Assembly: GCF_036946585.1 (NCBI RefSeq)
Contig: NZ_JAQIIV010000013.1
Coordinates: forward strand, 27,492 to 91,491
Source of the DNA: Pedobacter terrae
GTDB taxonomy: Bacteria > Bacteroidota > Bacteroidia > Sphingobacteriales > Sphingobacteriaceae
Direction: 5' to 3'
Length of the DNA: 64,000 bases
Below are positions 1,382-27,317 of the stretch, in pieces. Numbering within the stretch: position 1 is the first letter of the stretch; every line of letters starts with the position of its first letter. The position numbers and the translations under genes are program-made. The notes beneath the pieces were generated by a model. The model was given only the letters and a program-made list of their open reading frames with translations. It had not been told where the DNA came from and made no database searches.

Positions 1382-3592
1382 CTATTGATGCGCAATCCCC
1401 GTTGTTTTGCGATATTTTTTATACAGTTCCAATGCTGTTTTAACAGGGCTTCCAACGGGATTTAAGGCATAATCTTTTCTTTGATTTACCCATTTCCACT
1501 CCCATTTGCTTACTTCATCGTTAAACTTAGTGATGTTGAGTTCAGTTTTATCCGAAATAGACTTTTCCAATCGGCTAAAAAACATTTCCCATCGTGGTTT
1601 ATAAAAATCATTCATCAATCCGCTCCATTGTCTGCATGCATACTCGTTTAAAGGGTTTTTTGCATCACCCCACAAAGTGATCAAATCCTTTGCATTCATT
1701 TCGTACAAAGCTTTTTCCTGTTCGTTGGTTCCTTGTGTACGGGCATCATTTATCCAGGGACCGAGCATGAAATCTTTTCGCGTAGCCAACAATCTGTCCA
1801 TGTCTTCAATCAAAGTGATAAACTTTTTACGCTCTGTTTGGAAACCTTTCAGGTTTTTACTTCGATAGGCGTCCACCACTTTTCTTTGTAGAGGAAGTGC
1901 GTAATTGGCTAGTACCTGTCGGGTCACATCAACAAGGTCATATTGGTAACCATCACTTTGCTTGCAATCTGCTGCTGCATTAATCAGTTCATCCCAGGCG
2001 GGCAATAAATCGCGTTCGTTATAATTTAGGGTGGTTCGTGCCCAGCGGGTCATCGAATCGAGTGTCGGCCGGCCCTGTATAATAGATTCGGCCCCATCTC
2101 GCACATATTTATCTGCGGGTACACTATAAACGGTTTTTCTAAGTATTTTCCAGGCTTCTAATGCATTTTCATTTTTTTTGCCATAGCGGTTAAAAACATA
2201 TTGGGGTAACCATGTTTCCAGGTCAATTGGTGTAGAACGCCAAACATTTTCCATCATCAACTCGTACATGACCGGATTTTGTTCTATGCCTTCCATAGTC
2301 AAACCGATACCGTTCATTTTGCCACTTTTAGGGTCTTTTAATGCTTGTGCAGGAGCTGTGGCGACCACATCCATTCTTCCAAATAAATTGGTATTTCCGC
2401 CAAAGTTGTTCAGCATATTCCAAATCCATGGCTTTCCATAAAAACCTTCGGTGCGTTTCCAAACCGGTTCAATTTCTGTAGCTAAATCCAACAAAATCAT
2501 TTTATCATTTGGAACAGCCTTTAACAAAGCTTCTGTTTGTGCCTCTTTCCAAAATTTTCTATCGCTGTAAAACAACCAGCCTTGCATCACCCAAACCGCT
2601 TTAGGATCAGCTTGCGACATGCCATCATAAATCCTGGCACTTAATTTACTTAAAAATTCAGGGGCCGAAGATGGCGGTTCGTTTTCATTGAATGTGTCAG
2701 CAGAATACAGGTGATCCGTACCCAGCATTTCAGTCTGCTTTTGTAAAAACTTCTTTCCAATCTCTGCGAACATGGGATCCTCCGAATCAAGTATATAGGT
2801 ATCGGCAAAGCCGTTGGTCCAGTTGGTGGCTTTCAGTTTAGCATTCGGAAATTTATTTTTAAATGCCGCAGGTACATGTCCCGTAAACGCCGGGAGTACT
2901 GGTTTCATGCCCAATGCCCGTTCACGGTTCAAAATTTTCTTTTGTAATTCAAAATGGCTTTTCATCCAGCTTACCGGAAGCGGACCACCCCAGCCATCAA
3001 TATTACCCATCCAAAACCAGGAGAAATAAGCCGGTCCGGTGAAAAAACCTTTTAGTTCATCATCCGAAAAGCCCATTTCTTTGTACAGAAGGTACCAGGT
3101 ATATTCTTCGCCGGTAATGGCAAGTGGCATATTAATGCCATGTAAAGCCATCCAATCTATTTCTTTTTCCCAACGCGCCCAATCCCACCAGCTCATGCTA
3201 TAATTAAACGTACAGTAATTAAGATAATATCGATATTCATACGGTGTTTCCTTTCTTATTTTTGTTTTTACCACCGGAAGCGTAGCAGGTAAATTTAAGT
3301 TAGTGCCGTTCCAGGTAATTTGGCAATGCGCATATTCCGTTAGGTAGTGATAAAAAGCCGAAGCCAAAGCAACACCATTGTTTCCTCGAAGAATGATTTT
3401 GTTGTTCTTTGATTCGATCTCGAACACATCTTTTCCATTAACAGCAGGTAGGCTTTCTGTTGAGAACAATGCTGCATGTTTTGGTAATACCCTTTCTATG
3501 AGTTGGTTTGAAGTATTTAAAAAATCCTGAGCAAGTGCCTTGTTAACAAACAGGGAAAAAAGTGCAACTGAAAAGTATAATTTTAATTTCAT
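1382..3592 (-). CDS. Alpha-N-acetylglucosaminidase, GH89 (NAGLU-like), secreted
   Basis: YRYYLNYCTFNYSMSWWDWARWEKEIDWMALHGIN, DTFNENEP, LTMEGIEQNP, YACRQWSGL; signal peptide. Confidence 0.95.
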   Translation of the reverse strand: MKLKLYFSVALFSLFVNKALAQDFLNTSNQLIERVLPKHAALFSTESLPAVNGKDVFEIESKNNKIILRGNNGVALASAFYHYLTEYAHCQITWNGTNLNLPATLPVVKTKIRKETPYEYRYYLNYCTFNYSMSWWDWARWEKEIDWMALHGINMPLAITGEEYTWYLLYKEMGFSDDELKGFFTGPAYFSWFWMGNIDGWGGPLPVSWMKSHFELQKKILNRERALGMKPVLPAFTGHVPAAFKNKFPNAKLKATNWTNGFADTYILDSEDPMFAEIGKKFLQKQTEMLGTDHLYSADTFNENEPPSSAPEFLSKLSARIYDGMSQADPKAVWVMQGWLFYSDRKFWKEAQTEALLKAVPNDKMILLDLATEIEPVWKRTEGFYGKPWIWNMLNNFGGNTNLFGRMDVVATAPAQALKDPKSGKMNGIGLTMEGIEQNPVMYELMMENVWRSTPIDLETWLPQYVFNRYGKKNENALEAWKILRKTVYSVPADKYVRDGAESIIQGRPTLDSMTRWARTTLNYNERDLLPAWDELINAAADCKQSDGYQYDLVDVTRQVLANYALPLQRKVVDAYRSKNLKGFQTERKKFITLIEDMDRLLATRKDFMLGPWINDARTQGTNEQEKALYEMNAKDLITLWGDAKNPLNEYACRQWSGLMNDFYKPRWEMFFSRLEKSISDKTELNITKFNDEVSKWEWKWVNQRKDYALNPVGSPVKTALELYKKYRKTTGIAHQ

Positions 3593-3593
3593 A

Positions 3594-4820
3594 TCAAATT
3601 TTTAAGAACCACTTTTTATCGTAGAAGAACTTTAATAAAAACAGTTGAATCAATAATACCCCCGTCCACAAAGCAGCTTCATGCCATAGGGGAGGGACAA
3701 AGTTTATGAAACCACCAAATAAAAAATTAGATGATGATTCGAAGTTGAAAAGTCCGTGTGCGCAAACGTAAATCAAAATACTGTTTGTACCAAACCATAC
3801 AAATGGAATACTCCATCCGGAATAGGAGCGTATATCAATAACGTAATAGAATAGGGAGAATAATATGATACTCCAGCCTCCGGCAAATAAAACGAATGAG
3901 CTGGTCCACATGGTTTTATTGATCGGGAAGATGATGCTCCACAACAAACCAAGTCCAATGCACAGCAATCCGCTGCTGAGCAAAGCCGTAACTTTCTGAT
4001 TTGATGTGAAGTTAAACCTGGTCGATTTAACAAAAGCTCCCGTAAAAATGCCGAGCATTGCTGAGCAAATCGCGGGGATTGTGCTTAATAGTCCTTCAGG
4101 ATCGTAAATGGTTCGATGAAGTTTGCCGGGCAAAAACATTCTGTCGAAATAAGCCGAGAGATTTCCTTCTGGGCTAAAAACTCCGGGTCCGAAATGAGGG
4201 ACAGGCACAAACGCCATCAACAGATAATATCCAATAAGGATAGTCGCGAACCAAAAAATCATTCCTCGAAATGAACAATTTAAATAAATGATGGCCGCGA
4301 AAAAAGTGGCTAAAGCGATTCGACCCAGTACGCTGGCAAAACGGGTATTTTCATATCCGTTCCATTTTAATAGTCCGTTTACGACGAAGCCTAAAATGAT
4401 CAGTATGATGGTTCGCTTGATTAGCGGAAAATATATTTTTAGTGATGAATGCCAGTTTTTTTTTCTTTCCGCAAAGTATTTCTGGTAGGAGTAAGGCATG
4501 GATACTCCAGAGATAAATATGAACAAAGGAAAAATCAGGTCATAAAAAGTAAAACCATTCCATGGGGAATGATGCAGTTGATTGCTAATTCCAATAAAAA
4601 ATTTCTCAAAGAAAGATAAGCTATCATTTGTGGAGATGGTCCAGTCAATGGGGTTCCTTTTCAAAGCATGCTTATTCATGATCCCAGTGGCAAGGCCATG
4701 GAAGATTCCTTCGCCACTTACAATCCAGAACATGTCGAAACCGCGCAAAGCATCCAGCGAAATTAATCTTTTGGGCTTTTCTACCTTTTCGTCAATATTT
4801 TTTGTTTCGATAGCCGTCAT
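3594..4820 (-). CDS. HGSNAT-like (DUF5009/DUF1624) transmembrane acetyltransferase
   Basis: RLISLDALRGFDMFW, HSPWNGFTFYDLIFPLF, SVLGRIA, DPEGLLSTIPAI, PINKTMWTSSFVL; multiple TM segments; abuts GH89. Confidence 0.9.
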   Translation of the reverse strand: MTAIETKNIDEKVEKPKRLISLDALRGFDMFWIVSGEGIFHGLATGIMNKHALKRNPIDWTISTNDSLSFFEKFFIGISNQLHHSPWNGFTFYDLIFPLFIFISGVSMPYSYQKYFAERKKNWHSSLKIYFPLIKRTIILIILGFVVNGLLKWNGYENTRFASVLGRIALATFFAAIIYLNCSFRGMIFWFATILIGYYLLMAFVPVPHFGPGVFSPEGNLSAYFDRMFLPGKLHRTIYDPEGLLSTIPAICSAMLGIFTGAFVKSTRFNFTSNQKVTALLSSGLLCIGLGLLWSIIFPINKTMWTSSFVLFAGGWSIILFSLFYYVIDIRSYSGWSIPFVWFGTNSILIYVCAHGLFNFESSSNFLFGGFINFVPPLWHEAALWTGVLLIQLFLLKFFYDKKWFLKI

Positions 4821-4827
4821 TACAGGA

Positions 4828-5811
4828 TTACTTCTTGATTAAAGTATGATAAATAACATAACCTTCCTCGTTAATTACCTGTACGCGTAACTGGTCTTTG
4901 TTTACCGAAAATAGCATGAAGCCATACTCTGATGCCACCATCTGTGCTTCTGGTATTAGCTTAACAGGTGTTTTTTCTGATGCACCTCCGGAAATGAAAT
5001 GATGCGTTTTACCTTCTGGCTTAAGGTATTGTAAACTGTGTTCATGGCCAGTTAAATAAACATCAACACCATATTTATCAAGTATCGGTTTTAATGTGCT
5101 TCTGATTGCTTTGGTATCATAACCATCGGTACGGCTACCGCCAGTAAACATAGGATGGTGACCCACTACAATTTTCCACTTAATCGAAGGATCTTGATCA
5201 GCAAGGGTTTTTACCAACCACTTTTTCTGTCCGGTAGTATCTTGTCCCTTAACGTTTGGTCCGTATTCCGCGTTTTTATAAAATTCAGGGATCAGCGGAT
5301 TGGTATCAATAAATGCGATCAATACCTGATGATTTACATCGCCGTTAATGGTAAACTTTTTTGAATAATAACGGGCAGGCATTTTCCATCTTCTGCTAAT
5401 TTTCGAATAGGCTACCTGTGCATCAGGATTGGATTTGTAATCATGGTTCCCTAAAACCACATACCAATCCCACTGTAAAGAAAAGTCGGTGTAGATATCC
5501 TCAAAAGAGTACTTAAATGATGGATCTTGTGGGCTGATTACGCCGCTTGGGTAGAAGTTATCGCCGGTAGATATGATAAACTGTGCTTTAACATCAGCCG
5601 CCGTAATGCCCATTTGCTTGGCAACTGGTTTCTGGTGATCAGCGCCATTTCGGCCCCAATCACCTAACGCTAAAAACTGCAATGCTCCAGGATCTTTGAC
5701 TAGAGTTTTACTGGCTGCGACAGCTTCAGTTTGGTTTTTAGTAATGATTTGGGCATAAAGCGTATTGATAGATAGAATCAGAATAGGGAAAAGTAGTCGT
5801 TTGATCATCAT
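4828..5811 (-). CDS. Purple/tartrate-resistant acid phosphatase-like metallophosphoesterase, secreted
   Basis: GDWG, GDNFY, GNHD, GHHP, GHEH motifs; likely start MMIKRLL near 5811 with signal peptide (ORF track extends to 5889). Confidence 0.9.
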   Translation of the reverse strand: MMIKRLLFPILILSINTLYAQIITKNQTEAVAASKTLVKDPGALQFLALGDWGRNGADHQKPVAKQMGITAADVKAQFIISTGDNFYPSGVISPQDPSFKYSFEDIYTDFSLQWDWYVVLGNHDYKSNPDAQVAYSKISRRWKMPARYYSKKFTINGDVNHQVLIAFIDTNPLIPEFYKNAEYGPNVKGQDTTGQKKWLVKTLADQDPSIKWKIVVGHHPMFTGGSRTDGYDTKAIRSTLKPILDKYGVDVYLTGHEHSLQYLKPEGKTHHFISGGASEKTPVKLIPEAQMVASEYGFMLFSVNKDQLRVQVINEEGYVIYHTLIKK

Positions 5812-5855
5812 TTTGAATATAGTTGCAAATAAAGACAATGAAGCGTTGAAATAAA

Positions 5856-5886
5856 AATTTCTCCAGACCACCAGTCTGGAGAAATT
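5856..5886 (-). terminator. 13-bp hairpin after susD (terminator or mRNA-stabilising)
   Basis: AATTTCTCCAGAC-N5-GTCTGGAGAAATT followed by a T-rich tract on the minus strand. Confidence 0.65.
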
Positions 5887-5901
5887 CAAATAAAGCTAAA
5901 A

Positions 5902-7500
5902 TTAATTATAGCCAGGGTTTTGTTTCAATTTTGGATTAAGAATCAGCGCCGAAGCCGGAATCGGCATAAGTCTGTGAAATGTCTGTGCATCCGTTTTAAA
6001 GCCCCATGTGCCTTCATACTTGCCAAAGCGGATCATATCATTACGGTGCCAGCATTCCCATGAGAACTCTCTGCAACGCTCTTTATATAAATCTTCTAGC
6101 GTAACAGATGTCCACGCTGGTGAAGTTGTACGCACCGCTCTTAATTGATTCACTAATGATAATGCCGTTTGGCCTTGGGTAGGCGTAGCACCACGCAGGA
6201 TCGCTTCAGCTTTCATTAACAGGATATCAGAATATCTGAAAACAGGTACATCATTGTTTTGATTTCTGCTGGATGAGGTACTGTCACAATAAAATTTATT
6301 GTTCCTGTATCCCATGTTCCAGGCAATTTCATCGTTTCCTACGTCGAAAGGTCTTGCAGCATCTCTAAGCGTAACTGTTGGCGTGATATCAACCTGATAA
6401 GTAATTGCAGCTGAACCATCCGACCCGGTGTAAAACTGATCATAACCTTTTTTTGTGGTGGACACCGTAACTGGCCTGCCATCGTAATAAGTTTGCAATC
6501 CTTTAATCCATTGTGCATTTCTTTTGTCATTAGGATCGTTAAAATTAGCATAGTACTCAGGTAAGGTGCTCATTGGTGCACTTGGCGTAAACTTTAAGCT
6601 ATATTTTTGTTGTAAAGAACGAGGTAACGAATAACGGGCATAAATCATAGAACCACTGCTGAAACCTGGATCGAAAGGAATAGCGAAAATGAATTCTTTG
6701 ATTTGAGGTCCGTTATCAATGAAGAACATTTTTTTGTAATCGCTTTCTAAACTATAAGGAGAACCCGAGGCCCCAATAATGGCATCGCACATGGCTACGG
6801 CATCATTATAACGTTGAGTGCCAGTATAAACTTCTGCATTAAGGTACATTTTAGCCAGAATAGCATAGGCGGTATATTTATTTGGACGGCCATATGTTGC
6901 GGTTCCGGTAGCGCTGCTTAAGCTGGGCAATACCTCTTTAAGTTCAGCTTCAATAAAATTAAATACTTCTGCTCTGGTTTTGGTTTCTGGTGGAGTGGTT
7001 TGGCCAAAAGTAGTTACCACAGGAATATTTCCCCATAAGTCCATCATCATAAAAAATGCCAATGCTCTTGTAGCCCTTAGTTCGGCAACTGCAGTTGTTT
7101 TTGCAGGCGTTTCTGCAGCATCTTTAAGTAAATACAAACTTTGGTTGGCTTTACTTATCGTTGCTGAAAGCCAGTTCCATCCACTTCCCACGTGTCCGTT
7201 ATCTTTAGTCCAGGAGTGCTTATGATGGTTTTCAAATACGCCACCATCATACCAGTTCCCACCACGCGCAGGCATAATGGCTTCATCAGTACTTAACGAT
7301 TGCATGAAAAAATAATCCGTACTCCAGTTTTGACGCAACTGAACATAAACCTGGCCGGTAAGTTGAATATAATGCTGCTCGGTTTGTGGAAATGTTTCCG
7401 GAGTCAATTGTGTTTCCACTTTCAAATCCAGTTTATGGCAGGAAGTTAATACGCCTAGCGACAAAGCTGTTCCTGCAATATATTTGATCAGATTTTTCAT
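5902..7500 (-). CDS. susD: SusD/RagB family outer-membrane lipoprotein
   Basis: Lipobox LTSC; RALAFFMMMDLWGNIP; FRYSDILLMKAEA; ERCREFSWECWHRNDMIRFG; directly after susC. Confidence 0.95.
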   Translation of the reverse strand: MKNLIKYIAGTALSLGVLTSCHKLDLKVETQLTPETFPQTEQHYIQLTGQVYVQLRQNWSTDYFFMQSLSTDEAIMPARGGNWYDGGVFENHHKHSWTKDNGHVGSGWNWLSATISKANQSLYLLKDAAETPAKTTAVAELRATRALAFFMMMDLWGNIPVVTTFGQTTPPETKTRAEVFNFIEAELKEVLPSLSSATGTATYGRPNKYTAYAILAKMYLNAEVYTGTQRYNDAVAMCDAIIGASGSPYSLESDYKKMFFIDNGPQIKEFIFAIPFDPGFSSGSMIYARYSLPRSLQQKYSLKFTPSAPMSTLPEYYANFNDPNDKRNAQWIKGLQTYYDGRPVTVSTTKKGYDQFYTGSDGSAAITYQVDITPTVTLRDAARPFDVGNDEIAWNMGYRNNKFYCDSTSSSRNQNNDVPVFRYSDILLMKAEAILRGATPTQGQTALSLVNQLRAVRTTSPAWTSVTLEDLYKERCREFSWECWHRNDMIRFGKYEGTWGFKTDAQTFHRLMPIPASALILNPKLKQNPGYN

Positions 7501-7511
7501 CTTCTTAATTT

Positions 7512-10500
7512 TTAATTAAATGACACGTTTAACCCGAATAAAAATGTTCTGGTTTTAGGATAAAAGTTATTGGTATCTACACCTGGAGCAGTACCGCCCT
7601 GGTTAATCTCTGGGTCTATTCCTTTGTAACCGGTAATTACAAACAGGTTGTTTGCTGTAGTATATAATCGAAGAGAATTTACACCGGGAATAAGTCCTTT
7701 TTTGAAAGTATAGCCAAGTGTAGCATTATCTAAACGTAAATAACTACCATTTTCTAAAAACCTGCTTGAGTATTTAGGCGCGTTAAAATCAGCCGTTGAT
7801 TCATTTTCAACCTCTACCGGTATATTGGTAAATTGTGCCGTGCTAGGGCGGAATAAGTCTGCACGGGTAACATTCATAATTTTAAGACCTAAAGTAGCTC
7901 TCATGAACACGCTTAAATCAAAATTTTTATAGCGAATATTATTTGACCAACCTATCAATGCTTTTGGCTGTGCATCTCCAAGAATGTAATAGTCTGTTTT
8001 GTTAGCTGGGGTGGTTGTAAGATTACCAGCGGCATCATAATACTGTGAAACCCCATTCGCATTTTTTCCGGCATATTTAAACGTGTAGAAAGTTCCGATT
8101 GCCTGGCCCGGTCTGAGAATTTGCAAGGTAGCACCACTTTGTCCGGCTCCATCAGGAGAAATAGTCAACCGGTCTTCAATGTTAAATCTGCTATCGTTAG
8201 AAAGGGTGATGATTTTATTTTTATTATGCGCCAGGTTAAAACCTGTAGTCCAGCTAAAATTATCAGTAATTACTGGTGTACCATTTAAAACTAATTCAAT
8301 ACCCTTATTGCTTAATTCACCTACATTTGCCGTATAGCTGCCTGCCGGGTATAAATTATTATTAACGTCGAATGATAAAATCAAATCGGTTGTTTTTTTA
8401 TCATATAGATCCACAGATCCTGTTAATCTGCCATTAAGCAATCCAAAGTCGACACCCACATTGGTTGTAGCTGTTTTCTCCCATCTTAAATCAGGATTTT
8501 CATTTTGAATGGCACCATAGGCACCTTCTCTTGGCGAACCATTGTAATAAAATTGTCCAACCTGACCATAGATTAATTTGGTAGTTAACGGAGCAAATCC
8601 AAGAGAGTTACCAGCAATGCCATAACTGGCTCTTAACTTTAGGGTTTTGATTACACCTAAATTTTTGAAGAAATTTTCCTGATCAATGTTCCATGCTGCG
8701 CCAACAGATGGGTAATAACCCCATGTTTCATTTATACCAAATACGTTTGATCCATCTCTTCTGATTGATCCTTGTACAAGGTATTTGTTTTTGTAGTTGT
8801 AATTTACCCTTGCAAAGTCGGAAATCATTAAAATTTCCTGATATGTTCTGCCAGGATTATAATCTACCCTGAAATCAGTTACTGCATACGGATTTCCTAA
8901 ACTTAAGTTGTTATAACTTACCTGATTGATTGGGAAGTTGGTAGAACTGGTTTGGAAACCGTCGTTATTTAACGATTGTTGGTAAGAGTAACCCACTACG
9001 GCGTTGATATCATGATCGCCAAATTTTTTATTCCACGTTAAGTAGGTCTCGATAATTTTATTGGTGTTTTGGTAAGCATTTCTTACCGCTAAACCATCCT
9101 TACCTACTAAGCTTACAAAACCAGGCGTTGCAGGTGGCTCTGGTGTATTCCTAACATTATTATATCTGGAAGTGTAAACACTGTTGTAAAACGCAGCATA
9201 GTTATCTTGAGTATTTTGATATGATGCTGAAACATCATAAGAGAAACCAAACGGTAATTTTAGGTTTACAGTCAAATTTCCTAAAATATTTTTACTCTTC
9301 AAGTTCTCCTTACCATTCTCTAGCATCGAAACCGGATTATAGTAATTACTTTGAATTAAGTTATCAAAATATGATCCGTCCGGATTTTTAACTGGTGAGG
9401 TTGGTAAGTAAGTAAGCATTTGTGATAGCACAGTATTACGATAAGGAACCAGATTAGCGTTACTGATCGAGTTGCTGATGTTTAATCCAATCTTTAACTT
9501 ATCATTTAAAGCTTTTTGTTCAATACCAATACGACCGATAAATCTATTCAAATCACTCGTTTTGATGATACCATCCTGCTTAAAATAATTTAAACTGGCG
9601 TTATAAGTCGTTTTTTCAGTTCCACCGCTGAGCGATACATTGTGGTTGTATGATAAGGCATTGCTGCGCTGAACCTCATCTTGCCAGTTAGTATTGGCAC
9701 CTTTATCATTTGCTGGGGTAAGGGCATAATTGTTTTTTGCAAGGAACGCTTTCAACTCCTCAGCATCCATCATATCATAACGGTTAGATACATTTTCTAC
9801 GCCGAAGTAGCCATTATAACTAATTTGGGCCTGGCCCGCAACACCTTTTTTGGTAGTAACCATAATTACCCCATTCGCCGCCCTGTTACCATAAATTGCT
9901 GATGCTGCTGCATCTTTTAAAACATCAATTGAAGCAATGTCATCTGGTGCCAGAATCGAAATATCGGCACCTACCACACCATCAATTACAAAAAGTGGCG
10001 ATTGTGCACCATCACGTAGGGTAGATGCACCACGCATAATAATAGCTGCGTTACGGTTTGGGTCACCACTTCTGGTAATATTTAAACCTGGTACTTTACC
10101 TTGTAACATCTGGCCAACATCACTAATGGCTCCTTTATTCAAATCATCGCCTTTAACTGTAGAGATGGAACTGGTTAACGCCTTTCTTGAGCTTTTGCCG
10201 TAACCTACTACCACAACGTCAGTTAATGAAGCTGTAGATTCAACGATCGTAACAGAATAAGTAGATGAGGCGCCTACAGTAAGCTCTTTGGTTTGATAAC
10301 CTAAAAAACTGAATAATATTTTATCTCCTGTTTTAGCAGAGATGCTAAACGACCCACCGGCACCCGTTGGAGGTAACCTTTGTTGTTCCCTTTACTGAAA
10401 CCGAAGCCCCTATAATGGGTTGGTTGGTATTATCTAACAAGGTTCCGGTAATTTTTCGTTCAGTTTGCGCGTAGGCATTATTGAACACCTGGCTGATGAG

Positions 10501-10554
10501 TAAAAGCAGCATAAACAGGCCGCTATACTTTAAGCGTGTACTTTTAAATCTCAT
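7512..10554 (-). CDS. susC: SusC/RagA TonB-dependent transporter with an apparent +1 frameshift at ~10364-10370
   Basis: The 10345-10554 ORF gives signal peptide and CarboxypepD-like start; removing one base restores KVTSTGAGGSFSISAKTGDK...LTDVVVVGYG into the 900-aa ORF (DVLKDAAASAIYGNRAANGVIMVTTK, NPDLRWEKT, terminal SFN). Confidence 0.92.
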
Positions 10555-10614
10555 GATTTTTGTAAAATTAGATTCATAAATTGTTATTTGGTTATCAATG
10601 TTTGGAGATAGAAT

Positions 10615-11502
10615 TTAAAACTTAATGGTGTCAGGTAAATACTTAGTCACCAGTGCTTTGTAATAGGGTTCCAGTTCTGCCCAGCTTTTTTGATTGGGGT
10701 TTTTAGAATATAAATCATATGGGTTAAAAAGGTCAACCCACTTAAACATTTCATGGTCTTTTTCATTCATCAGGTGATCGTATGCATGTTCCCTATGTTG
10801 CGAATAAAAAGAGTGGTAACGGAGCATGTATAAACCTGGTTCTGGTAGGTAGGGTTTCATCATGTGGTACACATATTCATCATGGCCCCATGACATATCT
10901 ACATGATCCAAACCACAATTTTGGGTATAAACCCCCAGTTTAGTTTGGTAAACATCATTTTTGTAATCAGGATTCTGACTGAAAAATTCCGGATAAACAA
11001 TTTTATCAGAATAAGCACAACCAACCGGGAAAGTATCACCAACAACAGCCCATTGCGGTTCACCGAATAAACAAAGCACCTTACCCATATCGTGGATTAA
11101 GCCAACCAAAACCATCCAATCAGGGTGACCGTCGTTTCTAATGGCTTCAGATGTTTGCAATAGGTGCTGCATTTGGTCTAAATCAGTATCAGGATCAGAG
11201 TCATCCACCAACTTATTTAAAAAATCGAACGCACTCCAGATGGGCATCTCTTGTTTATTGAACCTAAGGTAATCGGCTTTTTTCTGCTTCACAAAATCGT
11301 AGGTTTGATAAGTGTGGTTAAGCCTGTAAAATTCCTTTACACTATCCTTTTCTGTTTCTTCATAATTTCTGAACTGCTCTTCTTTTTTGTCAGCATTGAT
11401 ACTTTTGGGATTTGGATATCGGGTTAATATATCCTCTTCCCATTGATCAAGATTTTGCAAAGGATTTTGGTTATCCTTTGAAGAATGACTTTGGTTTCTC
11501 AT
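10615..11502 (-). CDS. miox: Myo-inositol oxygenase (MIOX)
   Basis: LVDDSDPDTDLDQMQHLLQTSEAIR, GLIHDMGK, QWAVVGDTFPVGC, MSWGHDEY, LRYHSFY, FNPYDLYSK. Confidence 0.93.
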   Translation of the reverse strand: MRNQSHSSKDNQNPLQNLDQWEEDILTRYPNPKSINADKKEEQFRNYEETEKDSVKEFYRLNHTYQTYDFVKQKKADYLRFNKQEMPIWSAFDFLNKLVDDSDPDTDLDQMQHLLQTSEAIRNDGHPDWMVLVGLIHDMGKVLCLFGEPQWAVVGDTFPVGCAYSDKIVYPEFFSQNPDYKNDVYQTKLGVYTQNCGLDHVDMSWGHDEYVYHMMKPYLPEPGLYMLRYHSFYSQHREHAYDHLMNEKDHEMFKWVDLFNPYDLYSKNPNQKSWAELEPYYKALVTKYLPDTIKF

Positions 11503-11595
11503 AAGGCTAGAAATTGATTTCTATGAAAATTTGTTGGTTGTTGGGTTAAAGTTGAGTTTTTGAAAGCTTAAAATTTTATGATTGGCCAACTTTAT

Positions 11596-11615
11596 TTACT
11601 TAAACGATTACGTAA
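11596..11615. promoter_or_regulatory. Putative LacI-family operator upstream of the miox-susCD operon
   Basis: TTACTTAAACGATTACGTAA; reverse complement shares TTACGTAA-CGTTT with the site at 13023-13042. Confidence 0.55.
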
Positions 11616-11974
11616 AATTTTATTACTTAGTGAAAAATATGAGTTAAAATGCTTAAATTTAATTAGTTATATATTTTGTTCTTTTTGATAATATTGTTGT
11701 GATTGTGCGGGCATTAAAAAAAGGCCAAAGAAAAAAATGAAAGGTGATGTTATGATATTTTTATATTTTCGTTCGCTGTTAGCTATTTGTTTCAACAAGA
11801 AATGATATTGGGCAGCAATCGGCTAACTTATTTAGAACATCCAATTCAATGCTTATATCGTATAACTGTTGAGGCTGCTGTTTTGCAAAGTGCTGCTGGT
11901 GAAAAAAGGTAGATGCTGTCCTGTCAATTTTCATTGGCAAAGGCTACGCAGACCTTAAAAACTAACAAAACAAA

Positions 11975-12997
11975 ATGAAGAACATGGGGGAAGCAGTTAA
12001 TATTAAGCGGTTGGCTCAAGAGTTAAATATTTCAATCGCAACCGTTTCTAAGGCACTCAACGATAGCTATGAAATCAGTTTAAAAACCAAAAACAGGGTA
12101 TGGTCCTTGGCGAAAGAACTGAACTATACCCCAAATCCCGCTGCAAGTAACCTGCGCAGCAACAAAACCAAAACAATAGCAGTAGTTATACCCCGCGTGG
12201 CGAATAATTTTTTCTCTTTGTCTATCATGGGAATCGAAGAAATTGCCCGGCAATATGGTTACCATGTACTGATTTATCAAACCCACGAAGACATAGAGGC
12301 AGAGAAAGCATTTACCAACAGCTTGTTAAACGGGCGGGTAGATGGTATTCTCACTTCCGTATCAAGTAGTGAATACAATAGTGAATATTATGCCAATCTG
12401 GTCAAAAAAATTCCCTTGGTCTTTTTCGATCGGGTATACGAAAACCTGGATGCGGTTAAAGTAACTACTGATGATTACGAAGTTGCTTTTCAGGCTACTG
12501 AACATTTAATTGAGTGTGGCTGCACTAAAATCGCATATTTATTTGGACTCGAAAACCTTCCGGCAGGTAAGGCAAGGTTTGCTGGTTATCTTGATGCATT
12601 GAAAGTGCATGGGATTGCCGTTTCAGATCAACTTGTTATTAACTATATTGACGATGAAGAACTTAACCGGCGGCAGATAACAGAATTACTTAAAAAGTAT
12701 AAACCAGATGCACTTTTTTCCTCTATCGAAGAATTTATTATTCCAACATATTGCGCCTGTAGGGAAATGGGTTTAAAGATTCCGGATGATGTTAAAATAC
12801 TTAGTTTTTCTAACCTCAGTACAGCAAAACTTTTGAGTCCATCACTTACAACAATATCACAACCTGCATTTGAAATTGGCCGCGAAGCAGCTAAATGCCT
12901 CTTCAAAATTCTCAACAAAAAACAACTGGACGATGAACAGAATATTATTCTGAAATCGGTACTTACCAAACGGGAATCTACCGGTTGCGGAAGCTAA
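11975..12997 (+). CDS. LacI-family transcriptional regulator
   Basis: N-terminal HTH IKRLAQELNISIATVSKALND...LNYTPN; periplasmic-binding-type effector domain; divergent from miox. Confidence 0.93.
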   Translation: MKNMGEAVNIKRLAQELNISIATVSKALNDSYEISLKTKNRVWSLAKELNYTPNPAASNLRSNKTKTIAVVIPRVANNFFSLSIMGIEEIARQYGYHVLIYQTHEDIEAEKAFTNSLLNGRVDGILTSVSSSEYNSEYYANLVKKIPLVFFDRVYENLDAVKVTTDDYEVAFQATEHLIECGCTKIAYLFGLENLPAGKARFAGYLDALKVHGIAVSDQLVINYIDDEELNRRQITELLKKYKPDALFSSIEEFIIPTYCACREMGLKIPDDVKILSFSNLSTAKLLSPSLTTISQPAFEIGREAAKCLFKILNKKQLDDEQNIILKSVLTKRESTGCGS

Positions 12998-13022
12998 AAA
13001 AATACATTTTTTATTTGCTGTT

Positions 13023-13042
13023 TCCCGAAAACGTTTACGTAA
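13023..13042. promoter_or_regulatory. Putative LacI-family operator upstream of GH28
   Basis: TCCCGAAAACGTTTACGTAA, central-CG pseudo-palindrome matching 11596-11615. Confidence 0.55.
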
Positions 13043-13148
13043 TTAAATAATTGAATTAGACCATCAACATTGGGATTTTTTATGATTTTTAAACCGTTTT
13101 TTGACCATTGGGATAAGTTAAATAAACCAAACTGATAGCGATTTAAAA

Positions 13149-14567
13149 ATGAAAATTAGACCTTTACTCTTTTTTGTACTGCTGATTTCTTTCAGCGGGA
13201 TGGCCCAAAATAAATTGTTTAATATTAAAAACTACGGCGCAGTGGGCGACGGTAAAACCAACGATGCTGCTGCCATTCAAAAGGCCATCAATGCCTGTTC
13301 GGCGGCGGGTGGTGGACAGGTTATTGTGCCGGCTGGAAATGTGTTTTTAGCAGGTCCTTTTAATTTGAAATCGTTTGTTGATTTAAAGGTAGAAGGTGGG
13401 GCTAAACTATTAGCCAGTCCTGATGAAAAACTATATACGCGAAGTGCTTTTAGGGAAAATAAGGGTGAGGGAACCATTTGGATAGGTGGAGAAAAGCTTG
13501 AGCAGGTGAGTATTACCGGAACAGGAATAATTGATGGAAATGGGATTTCTTTTATGGGAGAGGAGTTGAGCGATTCGTATGTTTTAAAACCGTTTAATAT
13601 TATAGATCCTAGGCCGCATTTGCTTACGCTAATTGGCTGTAATAAATTGAACATAGACGGGGTAACGCTTCAAAATTCCGCGTACTGGACAGTTCATTTG
13701 GTGGGCTGTAATGATGTTTCCATATCCAATATCACCTTGCTGAACAGTATAAAAATCCGCAATAGTGATGGTATTGACCTGGATCACAGTAAAAATGTGC
13801 GAATTACCAATTGTTTTATTGAATCGGGTGATGATTGTATCTGCTTAAAAAACAGACGTGAGTTCGAAGAATATGGAGCCTGTGAAAATATCGTGGTCAG
13901 TAACTGTACCATGACCTCTAGCTCGTGTGCCATTAAAATTGGTTCTGAAAATATGGACCGGATCAGTAATGTACTCATCAATAATTGCAATATCAGAAAG
14001 AGCAACCGCGGTATTGGGATTCAAAATCGCGATGAGGGTACTGTTGAGCATGTTATTTTCTCTAACCTATTTATCGAATCGAAACTTTTCTCGGATGTGT
14101 GGTGGGGCAAGGCAGAGCCGATTTATATAACTGCTTATCCAAGAGCCACGAGTAATAATAAAGACGCTGGCTGGCGTTTACCAAAGGGGGAGACCAAAGG
14201 CAAGGTGGGTGCGGTTAAAAATATTTATTTTAGTAATATCAGGTGTACCGGAGAAAGCGGTGTTTACGTCAGCGGCGAAAGTCCGGATAAAATTTCTGAC
14301 ATCTATTTTGATCAGGTGAGTGTTCATCTCGATAAAACAACAAATGAAGCAGGTGGAGTATATGATCGCAGGCCCAGCAATGTTGAAGGGCTGGTTAAAA
14401 GTGCGGTTGCGGGATTTTATTTTGAAAATACCGGATACATCAGCCTGCAGAACAGCAATGTTGTTTGGGGTAAAAATAAACCTGCCTATGCCAGTAGGGC
14501 ATTGGAGAAAAAAAATGTAAGTAAGCTTAGGGAAATTAACTTTAGTGAAACCACAGTAGAAAAATAA
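13149..14567 (+). CDS. GH28-family (polygalacturonase-like beta-helix) glycoside hydrolase, secreted
   Basis: YGAVGDGKTNDAAAIQKAI; NSDGID, SGDDCI, IKIGSE motifs; signal peptide. Confidence 0.88.
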   Translation: MKIRPLLFFVLLISFSGMAQNKLFNIKNYGAVGDGKTNDAAAIQKAINACSAAGGGQVIVPAGNVFLAGPFNLKSFVDLKVEGGAKLLASPDEKLYTRSAFRENKGEGTIWIGGEKLEQVSITGTGIIDGNGISFMGEELSDSYVLKPFNIIDPRPHLLTLIGCNKLNIDGVTLQNSAYWTVHLVGCNDVSISNITLLNSIKIRNSDGIDLDHSKNVRITNCFIESGDDCICLKNRREFEEYGACENIVVSNCTMTSSSCAIKIGSENMDRISNVLINNCNIRKSNRGIGIQNRDEGTVEHVIFSNLFIESKLFSDVWWGKAEPIYITAYPRATSNNKDAGWRLPKGETKGKVGAVKNIYFSNIRCTGESGVYVSGESPDKISDIYFDQVSVHLDKTTNEAGGVYDRRPSNVEGLVKSAVAGFYFENTGYISLQNSNVVWGKNKPAYASRALEKKNVSKLREINFSETTVEK

Positions 14568-27024: not shown

Positions 27025-27131
27025 ATTTTTAATGTTTATTTTTTTTAGGTTTTAATATCTGTTTGAAAAAATGGATGTCAAAACCTTTTTTGTTATGGGG
27101 CTGTTTTATAACTATCTAATCAAAAATAGTT

Positions 27132-27305
27132 ATGGATGATAAACAAAAAACAGGTAACCCTGATCGGGCAAGGATTAATGTTAACGAAGCTTATGAGCTG
27201 GATTATTGGTCTGACAAATTCGGTGTGAGCAAAGATAAACTAAAGGCTGCGGTTGAAACCGTTGGAACCTCTTCCAGCGCGGTTGAAGATTATTTAAAAA
27301 AATAA
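27132..27305 (+). CDS. DUF3606 small protein (57 aa; missing from ORF track)
   Basis: Hand-translated MDDKQKTGNPDRARINVNEAYELDYWSDKFGVSKDKLKAAVETVGTSSSAVEDYLKK*. Confidence 0.85.
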   Translation: MDDKQKTGNPDRARINVNEAYELDYWSDKFGVSKDKLKAAVETVGTSSSAVEDYLKK

Positions 27306-27317
27306 GATATTAATTTT

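What the first reader, a model, noticed from the sequence alone, without database searches (positions are those of the whole stretch)
1382..14567. Candidate utilisation locus for glucosaminyl-inositol-phosphate glycans (plant GIPC, GPI, mycothiol-type)
Seen: one co-oriented run miox-susC-susD-acid phosphatase-HGSNAT-like-GH89, a divergent LacI and a GH28, with no sulfatase or lyase. Known: HGSNAT N-acetylates terminal alpha-GlcN so that GH89 can cleave it. MIOX converts myo-inositol to D-glucuronate. Some plant GIPC headgroups are GlcN(Ac)-alpha1,4-GlcA-alpha1,2-inositol-1-P. GPI cores contain GlcN-alpha1,6-inositol-P, and mycothiol contains alpha-linked GlcN-inositol. Inference: the genes form a route for such headgroups (acetylate, remove GlcNAc, dephosphorylate, oxidise inositol) rather than for heparan sulfate. 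I know of no described PUL with this combination.
Basis: partly seen in the sequence, partly recalled or inferred. Interest (0 to 1): 0.75.

Follow-up and report, generated by a model that had tools for sequence, protein, structure and literature searches.

The report
Inositol-glycan (plant GIPC headgroup) utilisation locus
A soil or plant Pedobacter carries a conserved gene cluster that probably imports and dismantles the sugar-inositol-phosphate headgroups of plant membrane sphingolipids (GIPCs), a very abundant lipid class with no described bacterial breakdown route.

Summary
On the minus strand lie MIOX, SusC, SusD, a purple acid phosphatase, a NagX/HGSNAT-like transmembrane N-acetyltransferase and GH89. 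A LacI regulator and a GH28 diverge from them. The locus holds no sulfatase or lyase.

New findings:
- SusC is split by one extra base.
- This copy lacks a Na+/solute symporter and a GH92 that most Pedobacter copies have.
- A 14-nt LacI-type operator lies before both transcription units and is conserved in more than 20 Pedobacter species.

The gene set recurs across Bacteroidota with orthologous SusC/SusD. Other genera add GH92, GH2, GH51/GH43, a second GH28 and a heparinase-fold protein. In a 401-genome sample, MIOX, GH89 and this GH28 subfamily co-occur far above chance. In two MIOX-less genomes the same GH28, GH92 and symporter (with NagX and GH89 in one of them) sit beside a classical iol inositol operon: complete iolBCDAEG in one, iolD, iolE and iolG in the other. 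So the substrate contains inositol.

The enzyme inventory matches plant GIPC headgroups (GlcN(Ac)/Man-α1,4-GlcA-α1,2-Ins-P, plus or minus Gal and Ara). It fits GPI, fungal GIPC, mycothiol or heparan less well. A Mucilaginibacter PUL of the same gene order matters for plant colonisation, and its substrate is unknown. Nothing here has been tested biochemically.

The parts
1382..3592 (-). GH89 alpha-N-acetylglucosaminidase, periplasmic (SPI signal MKLKLYFSVALFSLFVNKALAQ). Last gene of the operon in this genome.
   Evidence: Pfam NAGLU N, TIM and C domains, E 6.5e-149. Best PDB match is human NAGLU 4xwh, 3.3e-167. N-terminus.
3594..4820 (-). NagX/HGSNAT-like transmembrane acetyl-CoA:alpha-glucosaminide N-acetyltransferase. 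Its stop lies 1 nt from the GH89 start.
   Evidence: NF046061 NagX, 2.9e-93, below the equivalog cut-off. Matches human HGSNAT 8vkj, with His84 aligned to catalytic His297. A separate paralog (33% identity) sits in the canonical nag cluster on another contig.
4828..5811 (-). Secreted purple acid phosphatase of the mammalian ACP5/TRAP type. The likely true start is Met at 5811 (MMIKRLLFPILILSINTLYAQ). The ORF as listed runs to a TTG at 5889.
   Evidence: Pfam Metallophos. PDB 1qhw, 1war and 1ute, 1e-37 to 1e-40. Motifs GDWG, GDNFY, GNHD, VGHH and GHEH are in the sequence.
5855..5887 (-). 15-bp stem-loop followed by a T-rich tail, between susD and the phosphatase gene. Probably an attenuator or partial terminator after susCD.
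   Evidence: Strongest terminator-like site of the region.
5902..7500 (-). SusD-like surface lipoprotein (lipobox LTSC, Cys21).
   Evidence: Pfam SusD_RagB and SusD-like_3. Orthologs of 57-66% identity occur in Arcicella, Flectobacillus, Spirosoma, Fibrella, Chitinophagaceae, Flavobacterium and Prolixibacteraceae.
7512..10554 (-). SusC-like TonB-dependent transporter, split in two. Body: 7512-10214. Signal peptide and N-terminal domain: 10345-10554, in another frame.
   Evidence: TIGR04056, 666 bits, starting at model position 82. Three-frame translation. Intact 1013-aa ortholog in P. terrae.
10369..10370 (-). Site of the single extra C that shifts the SusC frame (ACCTCCAAC here, ACCT-CAAC in four relatives).
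   Evidence: DNA alignment A3. The same sequence is in Logan contigs of two runs of one sample at depth about 8, which is not independent support.
10615..11502 (-). myo-Inositol oxygenase (MIOX), cytoplasmic. First gene of the operon.
   Evidence: PF05153, full length, 1.7e-106. No signal peptide.
11602..11615 (.). Candidate LacI operator 1 (AAACGATTACGTAA), about 100 nt upstream of MIOX.
   Evidence: There are only 3 copies in the 5.19-Mb genome. The site is conserved at this position in many Pedobacter species.
11975..12997 (+). LacI-family repressor, transcribed divergently from the MIOX operon.
   Evidence: Pfam LacI HTH plus Peripla_BP domains. Orthologs of 72-93% identity are at this position in 26 of the 32 Pedobacter loci; 5 other loci carry a 45-48% LacI there.
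13029..13042 (.). Candidate LacI operator 2 (AAACGTTTACGTAA), 107 nt upstream of GH28. In relatives it precedes the SSF-GH28 operon.
13149..14567 (+). GH28 subfamily 'GH28a', periplasmic (signal MKIRPLLFFVLLISFSGMAQ). Proposed to remove the uronic acid from inositol.
   Evidence: PF00295, 1.7e-32. Catalytic NSDGID and GDD motifs are present. Orthologs (55% identity or more) lie within 26 kb of MIOX or GH89 in 14 of 16 genomes and beside iol operons in the remaining two, one of the 14 having both.

Best explanation
This is a LacI-controlled polysaccharide-utilisation-type locus of a Pedobacter. It takes up and fully dismantles small inositol-linked glycans. The most likely substrates are soluble headgroups of plant glycosyl-inositol-phosphoceramides (GIPCs): inositol phosphate glycans or glycosyl-inositols such as GlcN(Ac)-α1,4-GlcA-α1,2-Ins(-1-P).

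Proposed route (every step is inferred from homology and gene context; none is shown):
1. A phospholipase of the plant, of a fungus or of the bacterium itself releases the headgroup from ceramide.
2. SusD and SusC import it directly. No gene of the locus encodes a surface endo-enzyme.
3. In the periplasm, the purple acid phosphatase removes the inositol-1-phosphate monoester.
4. NagX uses cytoplasmic acetyl-CoA to N-acetylate a terminal α-GlcN.
5. GH89 removes the α-GlcNAc. This is the same GlcNAc-α1,4-GlcA bond that its closest solved relative, human NAGLU, cuts.
6. The GH28 enzyme removes the remaining α-linked uronic acid from inositol.
7. Inositol enters the cell. In relatives a Na+/solute symporter co-transcribed with GH28 would do this.
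8. MIOX opens the inositol ring to D-glucuronate.
9. Both glucuronates enter the UxaC/UxuA hexuronate pathway, which is encoded elsewhere in the genome.

Relatives add GH92 for the Man-GlcA-Ins variant. They also add GH2 and GH51/GH43 for the galactose and arabinose of polyglycosylated GIPCs.

The copy in this window is a reduced version. It has no dedicated symporter and no GH92, and its SusC reading frame is broken, either truly or by an assembly error.
For: **Gene identities.**

**One regulon.** The 14-nt motif AAACGNTTACGTAA occurs 3 times in 5.19 Mb. Two copies lie in the two promoter regions of this locus. The motif keeps those two positions in more than 20 Pedobacter species.

**Conserved linkage within the genus.**

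**Conserved linkage outside the genus, with orthologous SusC/SusD (53-66% identity).**
- Flavobacterium: GH89-SusC-SusD-GH92-GH92-phosphoesterase-HTCS-MIOX-GH2-NagX-SSF-GH28b-GH28a-GH51.
- Chitinophagaceae: LacI-MIOX-SusC-SusD-lyase-fold protein-PAP-NagX-GH89-GH28a.
- Arcicella and Flectobacillus: SusC-SusD-NagX-GH89-GH92.

**Co-occurrence in 401 Bacteroidota genomes**.
- MIOX 31 genomes, GH89 23, both 14 (1.8 expected; Fisher p 6e-12; by genus 5 against 1.6, p 0.011).
- GH28a orthologs 16 genomes. Of these, 12 have MIOX and 13 have GH89.

**Non-orthologous replacement of MIOX.** Two MIOX-less genomes of other families carry the classical iol genes beside the same glycosidases.
- One has iolB-C-D-A-E-G followed by GH92-GH28a-SSF. 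All but iolE score above the NCBIfam cut-offs.
- The other has iolD, iolE and iolG, then GH92-GH28a-SSF-NagX-GH89.
- So the glycan contains inositol.

**Uronate content of the glycan.** Two GH28 subfamilies recur. A Tat-exported protein follows SusD in many genera, and its AF2 model matches exo-heparinase, PL33, PL12, PL17 and PL8 lyases.

**Substrate chemistry from the literature.**
- GIPC core is GlcNAc(α1-4)GlcA(α1-2)Ins-1-P-Cer. GlcN and Man variants exist, with extra Gal, Ara and Man (PMC8099651).
- Soluble IPGs such as Man-GlcA-Ino-P are released in plant tissue (PMC11496612).

**In-planta relevance.** Mutants of a PUL with the same gene order (LacI, inositol oxygenase, TBDT, SusD, symporter) in Mucilaginibacter yixingensis are impaired in Brachypodium colonisation. 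They show no phenotype on the tested pure carbon sources (PMC13440311).

**Downstream pathway.** UxaC and UxuA are present in this genome.
Against: - No enzyme or transporter of this locus family has been assayed.
- No GH28 is known, to my knowledge, to act on GlcA or on an inositol aglycone. Characterised GH28s act on α-GalA.
- The step that frees the headgroup from ceramide is not encoded in the window.
- The phosphatase is common in Pedobacter (28 of 32 loci) but rare elsewhere (3 of 47).
- This genome's copy lacks orthologs of the symporter and GH92 and has a frameshifted SusC, so it may be decaying or non-functional.
- Some hosts (Arcicella, Flectobacillus) are freshwater bacteria, not plant-associated.
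- My link to Mucilaginibacter PUL39 rests on gene order and annotation only. I could not compare sequences.
- The co-occurrence statistics are not corrected for phylogeny beyond the by-genus count.
Confidence: 0.6

Rival explanations
1. Same logic, different inositol glycan. The locus targets GlcN-α-inositol cores that lack uronic acid: GPI anchors (Man3-GlcN-α1,6-Ins-P) or fungal GIPCs (Man-Man-GlcN-α1,2-Ins-P-Cer).
For: NagX, GH89, phosphatase and MIOX (with GH92 in relatives) would suffice for these structures. GPI GlcN is never N-acetylated, which would make NagX essential. Pedobacter lives with fungi and plants. The genome holds a PI-PLC-like lipoprotein that could release GPI or PI headgroups.
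Against: It does not explain three things. GH28a shares the operator and is the gene most tightly linked to MIOX, iol genes and GH89. GH28b and a heparinase-fold protein recur. GH51/GH43 and GH2 appear in the larger versions. The minimal iol-linked set GH92+GH28a+SSF fits Man-GlcA-Ins exactly.
Confidence: 0.15
2. A PUL for unsulfated heparosan-like or another bacterial or algal glycan with GlcN(Ac)-α1,4-GlcA repeats. MIOX is attached only because it is another source of glucuronate under the same hexuronate-responsive LacI.
For: GH89 is closest to NAGLU and NagX to HGSNAT. The protein that follows SusD in other genera has a heparinase or GAG-lyase fold. A Bacteroides GH89 acts on heparosan oligosaccharides (PMC8225759).
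Against: Heparosan GlcA is β-linked, and no β-glucuronidase or GH88/GH105 is a regular member. The locus has no surface endo-lyase, so it is not built for a polymer. Linkage to inositol catabolism holds through two unrelated pathways, MIOX and iolBCDEG, which a 'glucuronate regulon' does not predict. GH92, the phosphatase and the arabinofuranosidases are left unexplained.
Confidence: 0.08
3. No single substrate. A free-inositol module (MIOX plus or minus symporter), an α-GlcNAc-glycan PUL and a pectin GH28 merely sit together in Pedobacter.
For: MIOX-symporter pairs without glycosidases are common in the phylum. A second Pedobacter MIOX context lacks GH89 and NagX. Pedobacter genomes hold many pectin enzymes.
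Against: MIOX is the first gene of the susCD operon, only 60 nt upstream of susC. A shared, genome-specific operator precedes both units. The same set recurs in different orders in other families and classes. Co-occurrence is far above chance.
Confidence: 0.07
4. Scavenging of actinobacterial mycothiol or its precursors (GlcNAc-Ins, GlcN-Ins, GlcNAc-Ins-3-P).
For: The phosphatase, NagX, GH89 and MIOX match GlcNAc-Ins-P, GlcN-Ins and Ins one-to-one. Actinobacteria are abundant in soil.
Against: It leaves no role for GH28a, GH28b, GH92, the lyase-fold protein, GH2 or GH51. The plant-colonisation phenotype of the same-order PUL points to a plant compound.
Confidence: 0.03

Closest known systems
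'PUL39' of Mucilaginibacter yixingensis YX-36 (ISME Commun 2026, PMC13440311)
   Same: Same family (Sphingobacteriaceae). Same annotated parts and order: LacI, inositol oxygenase, TonB-dependent receptor, SusD, one further gene, Na+/sugar symporter. Predicted as a PUL, substrate unknown.
   Different: Only gene order and annotation could be compared, because no sequence was available here. The paper lists no GH89, NagX or GH28 and proposes no substrate. It does provide the only phenotype: mild but significant loss of Brachypodium colonisation and no phenotype in vitro.
Pus1/PusCD1 phospho(inositol)lipid utilisation system of Flavobacterium johnsoniae (bioRxiv 10.64898/2026.09.03.749221)
   Same: A SusCD-like pair of plant-associated Bacteroidota that imports an inositol-phosphate headgroup (IP1, GroPI). 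It is clustered with phosphoesterases. The authors speculate that GIPC-derived IPGs are also ligands.
   Different: Pus1 serves phosphorus acquisition. It carries PI-PLC and a GIPC-PLC-like phosphodiesterase and is rarely flanked by CAZymes. The present locus is LacI-controlled, has no PI-PLC, carries glycosidases, NagX and an inositol ring-opening oxygenase, and so looks like carbon catabolism of the glycan and the inositol. Whether the two SusD proteins are related was not testable, since no PusD sequence or structure is in the PDB copy.
Lysosomal heparan sulfate end-trimming pair HGSNAT then NAGLU (with ACP5 as a lysosomal acid phosphatase)
   Same: The same two-step chemistry on the same disaccharide: acetylate terminal GlcN-α1,4-uronate across a membrane, then hydrolyse α-GlcNAc. 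The catalytic His is conserved. NAGLU is the best solved match. The phosphatase is ACP5-like.
   Different: No sulfatases, iduronidase or β-glucuronidase. The setting is bacterial periplasm and inner membrane. The pair is coupled to inositol catabolism.
NagX of chitin/GlcN utilisation clusters (Price et al. 2022, PMC9007349)
   Same: Same protein family. Genetic evidence supports periplasmic N-acetylation of glucosamine using cytoplasmic acetyl-CoA.
   Different: The canonical NagX acts on free GlcN and sits with nagA, nagB, nagK and nagP. This genome has such a copy elsewhere (33% identity). The copy in the window scores below the equivalog cut-off and is translationally coupled to GH89, which suggests a glycan-bound α-GlcN substrate.
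Botrytis cinerea GIPC-PLC (BCIN07g04350; Commun Biol 2024, PMC11496612)
   Same: The only characterised microbial enzyme acting on plant GIPC. It produces the soluble IPGs proposed here as substrates.
   Different: It is a fungal acid-sphingomyelinase-like phosphodiesterase that cuts the lipid off. Nothing downstream (deglycosylation, inositol use) has been described. No ortholog was identified in the window.

Membership tests
Bacteroidota polysaccharide utilisation locus (PUL) | Adjacent susC-like TonB-dependent transporter and susD-like lipoprotein genes | tested here: met
   TIGR04056 at 666 bits and the SusC signature. SusD_RagB and SusD-like_3 domains, lipobox Cys21.
Bacteroidota polysaccharide utilisation locus (PUL) | Intact, expressible SusC | tested here: inconclusive
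   A +1 frameshift at 10369-10370 separates the signal peptide and N-terminal domain from the barrel. Contigs of two runs of the same sample agree at depth about 8. A second conserved gene in the window (aldehyde dehydrogenase) is also split, at an A-run, which suggests assembly indel errors.
Bacteroidota polysaccharide utilisation locus (PUL) | Co-localised, co-regulated CAZymes and a dedicated regulator | tested here: met
   GH89 and GH28, plus LacI. The shared operator motif is conserved in more than 20 species. Regulation itself has not been measured.
myo-Inositol oxygenase (MIOX, PF05153) | Full-length match to the family profile above the curated cut-off | tested here: met
   355.8 bits against a cut-off of 25, covering profile positions 1-249 of 249.
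myo-Inositol oxygenase (MIOX, PF05153) | Diiron-ligand His/Asp residues and activity on myo-inositol | not tested
   Individual ligands were not checked. Activity is not testable with these tools.
GH89 alpha-N-acetylglucosaminidase | Three-domain NAGLU architecture | tested here: met
   NAGLU_N, NAGLU and NAGLU_C are all above cut-off. Human NAGLU is matched over residues 37-728.
HGSNAT/NagX transmembrane N-acetyltransferase | Catalytic histidine that carries the acetyl group (His297 of HGSNAT) | tested here: met
   Query 'lhHspwng' aligns with HGSNAT 'fkHaswng' at residues 295-302. The role of this His is from PMC9007349.
HGSNAT/NagX transmembrane N-acetyltransferase | Equivalog-level identity to NagX_SO_3504 (free-GlcN acetyltransferase) | tested here: not met
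   312.9 bits, below the 480-bit cut-off. It is a diverged subfamily distinct from the genome's nag-cluster copy.
Purple acid phosphatase | Five metal-ligand motifs: DXG, GDXXY, GNH(D/E), VXXH, GHXH | tested here: met
   GDWG, GDNFY, GNHD, VGHH and GHEH can be read in the sequence. The motif definition is from my own knowledge of the family. PDB matches to ACP5/TRAP at 1e-40.
GH28 | Catalytic Asp motifs (NTD / G-D-D) on a right-handed beta-helix | tested here: met
   PF00295, 113 bits. 'NSDGID' and 'GDDCI' align with 5olp.
GH28 | Activity on alpha-D-galacturonosyl linkages (all characterised members known to me) | not testable with these tools
   All NCBIfam equivalogs score far below cut-off (best 250 of 600). 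The gene context argues for a GlcA-inositol substrate, which would be new for the family.
Pus1-type phospho(inositol)lipid system | PI-PLC and a GIPC-PLC-like phosphodiesterase next to pusCD | tested here: not met
   No PI-PLC domain in the locus. The genome's only PI-PLC-X hit is on another contig, not beside a SusCD pair. The phosphoesterase here is a PAP-type monoesterase.
Heparin/heparan sulfate PUL | Heparinase (PL12/13/15/21), sulfatases, GH88 | tested here: not met
   None in the window locus. The genome has no homolog of the lyase-fold family found in other genera.

The most novel reading that the evidence does not exclude
This locus family is the missing bacterial catabolic pathway for plant GIPC headgroups. 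GIPC is the major sphingolipid of plant plasma membranes. The family would contain three new activities: a GH28 that is an α-glucuronidase releasing myo-inositol from GlcA-α1,2-Ins; a NagX that acetylates glycan-bound GlcN in the periplasm; and, in other genera, a new polysaccharide-lyase family that cuts GlcN(Ac)-α1,4-GlcA in the headgroup. The pathway would contribute to plant colonisation by Bacteroidota.
Probability: 0.45. Interest if true: 0.85.

Novelty: new variant of a known kind. Interest (0 to 1): 0.72.

Why it matters
GIPCs make up to about 40% of plant plasma-membrane sphingolipids (PMC8099651). They are receptors for microbial NLP toxins, and their soluble headgroups accumulate during infection (PMC11496612). 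No organism's route for consuming these headgroups is described. Full-text searches for GIPC with PUL, glycoside hydrolase or Bacteroidota, and for MIOX with GH89, found nothing relevant.

The comparative picture assembled here gives a concrete, gene-by-gene hypothesis with cheap tests. It assigns a probable substrate to a PUL already shown to matter for root colonisation but left unexplained. It also predicts new specificities in GH28, in NagX and in an unclassified lyase-fold family. Finally, it shows a rare design in which a PUL carries the ring-opening enzyme for a non-sugar aglycone.

Tried and rejected
- An Rfam scan of the window found nothing.
- σ70 promoter scans were at shuffle level and are not suited to Bacteroidota.
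- Reads did not settle the SusC frameshift. Only assembled contigs of the same sample matched, and Nanopore runs with the same species label did not map.
- The third genomic copy of the operator motif lies inside a nagB/PIG-L-type ORF of the canonical nag cluster. I treat it as chance.
- I tested whether the 610-aa metallophosphoesterase of the Flavobacterium version is acid-sphingomyelinase/GIPC-PLC-like by sequence. The only hit was a weak one to Lmo2642, so that idea is not supported here.
- I searched the PDB copy for a solved PusD/PusC to compare with this SusD. None was identifiable.
- Supplementary tables of the Mucilaginibacter paper, which would show the full PUL39 content, are not held.
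- NCBIfam gave no specific name for the symporter, so 'inositol transporter' rests on context only.
- No remnants of GH92 or the symporter were found in this genome. Two relatives (Pedobacter sp. KLB.chiD and a MAG) also lack the symporter.
- I considered and rejected phytate, mucin α-GlcNAc caps and teichoic acids as substrates. None explains the MIOX/iol linkage together with the GH28 enzymes.

Full report
**1. What is in the window**

On the minus strand, in order of transcription, lie:
- MIOX, 10615-11502 (PF05153, full length, 356 bits)
- SusC, 7512-10214 (TIGR04056, 666 bits)
- SusD, 5902-7500
- a calcineurin-like phosphoesterase, 4828-5889
- a NagX/HGSNAT-like membrane protein, 3594-4820 (NF046061, 313 bits, below the 480-bit equivalog cut-off)
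- GH89, 1382-3592 (three NAGLU domains)

A LacI regulator (11975-12997) and a GH28 (13149-14567) diverge from them. The flanks are unrelated: TfoX and an RND efflux system on one side, an unannotatable 203-aa ORF on the other. The locus contains no sulfatase or lyase.

Closer identification:
- The phosphoesterase is a mammalian-type purple acid phosphatase (ACP5/TRAP, E about 1e-40). All five metal-ligand motifs are present.
- The best solved relative of GH89 is human NAGLU (3e-167).
- NagX His84 aligns with the catalytic His297 of human HGSNAT.
- GH28 keeps the catalytic NSDGID and GDD motifs.
- GH89, the phosphatase and GH28 have SPI signal peptides. SusD has a lipobox. MIOX has no signal.
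- So the locus encodes no surface endo-enzyme. Whatever is imported must already be small.

**2. Corrections to the observation**

*SusC is interrupted.* Its signal peptide and N-terminal domain are encoded in another frame at 10345-10554. Alignment with four Pedobacter relatives shows one extra C at 10369-10370. In P. terrae the gene is one ORF of 1013 aa.
- Contigs from two runs of the same sample carry the same base at depth about 8. That is not independent support.
- A second conserved gene in the window, an aldehyde dehydrogenase, is also split, at profile position 293/295 beside an A-run.
- Genome completeness is 92%.
- I therefore think an assembly indel is at least as likely as a true pseudogene, but I cannot decide.

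*The phosphatase start.* The listed TTG start lies inside a 15-bp hairpin with a T-rich tail just after susD. The real start is probably the Met at 5811.

**3. One regulon**

The motif AAACGNTTACGTAA occurs three times in the 5.19-Mb genome. About 0.15-0.3 copies are expected by chance (my own estimate from motif length and genome size). One copy lies about 100 nt upstream of MIOX and one lies 107 nt upstream of GH28. The third is inside an ORF of the canonical nag cluster, and I regard it as chance.

In more than 20 Pedobacter species the motif occupies the same two positions. One is upstream of MIOX. The other is about 75 nt upstream of a Na+/solute symporter gene that precedes GH28. So the unit is [MIOX-susC-susD-PAP-nagX-GH89(-GH28b)(-GH92)] plus [SSF-GH28], under one LacI repressor.

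The window's genome, Pedobacter sp. KLB.chiD and one MAG have lost the symporter, which leaves the operator directly in front of GH28. The window's genome has no ortholog of the symporter, of GH92 or of GH28b anywhere. This copy is therefore a reduced version.

**4. Conservation**

The genus is Pedobacter.
- MIOX occurs in 25 of 37 genomes of the genus.
- Among 32 loci anchored on close SusD orthologs, MIOX is present in 30, NagX 31, LacI 31, PAP 28, SSF 28, GH28a 27, GH92 27 and GH89 26.

SusC/SusD orthologs at 53-66% identity mark the same locus family in other families. That identity is high for these proteins.
- Flavobacterium: GH89-SusC-SusD-GH92-GH92-metallophosphoesterase-HTCS-MIOX-GH2-NagX-SSF-GH28b-GH28a-GH51
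- Chitinophagaceae: LacI-MIOX-SusC-SusD-unk608-PAP-NagX-GH89-GH28a, with GH92 in some
- Arcicella and Flectobacillus: SusC-SusD-NagX-GH89-GH92
- Spirosoma and Fibrella: only sigma/anti-sigma-SusC-SusD-unk608
- A further Flavobacterium-genus genome: SSF-MIOX next to SusC-SusD-GH92-unk597-DUF4861-GH28b-GH2-GH92-GH43-GH89-NagX

**5. Statistics**

In an even sample of 401 Bacteroidota genomes:

| Gene | Genomes | Genera |
|---|---|---|
| MIOX | 31 | 20 of 178 |
| GH89 | 23 | 14 of 178 |
| GH28a ortholog (55% identity or more) | 16 | — |

- MIOX and GH89 occur together in 14 genomes against 1.8 expected (Fisher p 6e-12). By genus the count is 5 against 1.6 (p 0.011). In 12 of the 14 the two genes lie on one contig within 26 kb.
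- Of the 16 genomes with a GH28a ortholog, 12 have MIOX and 13 have GH89. In 14 of the 16, MIOX or GH89 lies within 26 kb.
- These tests are not corrected for phylogeny beyond the genus count.

**6. The decisive comparative result**

Two genomes of other families have a GH28a ortholog but no MIOX: G366, one of the two without MIOX or GH89 nearby, and G112, where GH89 lies nearby. Both carry the classical inositol pathway next to it.
- One has iolB-iolC-iolD-iolA-iolE-iolG followed directly by GH92-GH28a-SSF. All but iolE score above the curated NCBIfam cut-offs; iolE scores 216 bits against 290.
- The other has iolD, iolE and iolG, then GH92-GH28a-SSF-NagX-GH89.

Two unrelated inositol-catabolic routes are thus attached to the same glycosidase set. 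That is hard to explain unless the glycan carries inositol.

The smallest set, GH92 + GH28a + symporter + iol, is exactly what Man-GlcA-Ins would need. NagX + GH89 is what the GlcN(Ac)-GlcA-Ins variant needs in place of GH92.

**7. Uronic acid in the substrate**

Two GH28 subfamilies recur. In addition, a roughly 600-aa Tat-exported protein with no Pfam or NCBIfam match follows SusD in many genera. I call it unk608; the Flavobacterium form, unk597, is 47% identical.
- Its AlphaFold model (pLDDT 77) is an (α/α)-toroid plus β-sandwich.
- The best structural matches are exo-heparinase, PL33, GAGase VII, heparinase III, PL17 and PL8 lyases (probability 1.0, TM about 0.5).
- It has an invariant GGVHTPNHRW motif.
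- These lyases cut hexosamine-(1,4)-uronate bonds, and GlcN(Ac)-α1,4-GlcA is such a bond.
- This protein is absent from the window's genome.

**8. Matching to known chemistry**

According to PMC8099651:
- All characterised plant GIPCs have GlcA on inositol-phosphoceramide.
- The best-described headgroup is GlcNAc(α1-4)GlcA(α1-2)Ins-1-P.
- GlcN (PSL2) and Man (Arabidopsis leaves) variants exist.

Each component has one candidate enzyme in the locus family:

| Component | Candidate |
|---|---|
| Ara | GH51/GH43 |
| Gal | GH2 |
| Man | GH92 |
| GlcN | NagX |
| GlcNAc | GH89 |
| GlcA | GH28a/b or the lyase-fold protein |
| Phosphate | PAP |
| Inositol | SSF plus MIOX or iol |

Soluble inositol phosphate glycans such as Man-GlcA-Ino-P occur in plant tissue. 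Plant enzymes and a Botrytis GIPC-PLC release them (PMC11496612). These small phosphomonoesters suit a SusCD importer that has no surface endo-enzyme, and they suit a periplasmic acid phosphatase. UxaC and UxuA for the glucuronate produced are present in the genome.

**9. Literature**

- Full-text searches found no paper joining GIPC with PULs or glycoside hydrolases of Bacteroidota, and none joining MIOX with GH89 in bacteria.
- Closest report 1: 'PUL39' of Mucilaginibacter yixingensis (symporter, SusD, TBDT, inositol oxygenase, LacI). Its mutants colonise Brachypodium less well. The authors say the substrate is unclear and close homologs are uncharacterised.
- Closest report 2: the PusCD systems of F. 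johnsoniae. They import inositol phosphate or glycerophosphoinositol as a phosphorus source. The authors speculate about GIPC-derived IPGs but could not test them.
- NagX has genetic support as a periplasmic GlcN N-acetyltransferase.
- Earlier notes of this scan describe related loci in other genomes and pointed me to the Pus work. I treated them as leads only.

**10. Verdict**

- That the substrate is an inositol glycan I hold at about 0.85.
- That it is specifically plant GIPC I hold at about 0.6.

The window's own copy is a trimmed and possibly damaged member of the family. All functions are inferred; none is shown.

Noticed in passing
window 32482-33857 (+): An aldehyde dehydrogenase is split into two overlapping ORFs (Pfam positions 9-293 and 295-461). 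The shift lies near 33330 beside an A-run. It is a second single-base frame break in 64 kb, which suggests indel errors in this assembly.
   Followed up: partly
loci L127:11729-13528, L154:11693-13528, L133:11707-13476, L084:1319-3112 (not in the window): An unannotated family of about 600 aa with a Tat signal follows SusD in this PUL family in many genera. It has a heparinase/PL33/PL17-like fold and an invariant GGVHTPNHRW motif. It is a candidate new polysaccharide-lyase family.
   Followed up: partly
loci L166 and L168 (genomes G112, G366): The classical iol pathway (iolB-C-D-A-E-G in L168; iolD, iolE and iolG in L166) lies directly beside GH92-GH28a-SSF (plus NagX-GH89 in L166) in MIOX-less Bacteroidota. 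It is an iol-linked version of the same system.
   Followed up: yes
own genome, contig C4:82950-87467: The canonical GlcNAc/GlcN cluster: LacI, a NagX paralog (33% identity to the window's), a NagB/PIG-L fusion and an anhydro-sugar-kinase-like gene. It holds the third genomic copy of the operator-like motif, inside the nagB-like ORF.
   Followed up: partly
own genome, contig C3:459185-463895: A PI-PLC-X lipoprotein (322 aa, lipobox) lies next to GH43-like and GH51-like genes and not beside a SusCD pair. It could release inositol-phosphate headgroups from PI, GPI or IPC lipids.
   Followed up: no
loci L030, L031, L033, L035, L038 (other Pedobacter species): A second MIOX clade (about 70% identity) with its own LacI (45-47%). 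In some species it has a different SusCD pair (31-35%), and it has no GH89 or NagX. Its function relative to the main locus is unknown.
   Followed up: no
window 5855-5887 (-): A perfect 15-bp hairpin with a T-rich tail lies between susD and the phosphatase gene. It is probably an intra-operon attenuator that sets susCD above enzyme expression.
   Followed up: no
window 25789-30014 (+): A GT87-family glycosyltransferase homolog (a family typical of mycobacterial mannosyltransferases) and a three-domain LigD lie in a Pedobacter genome. Neither is related to the finding.
   Followed up: no
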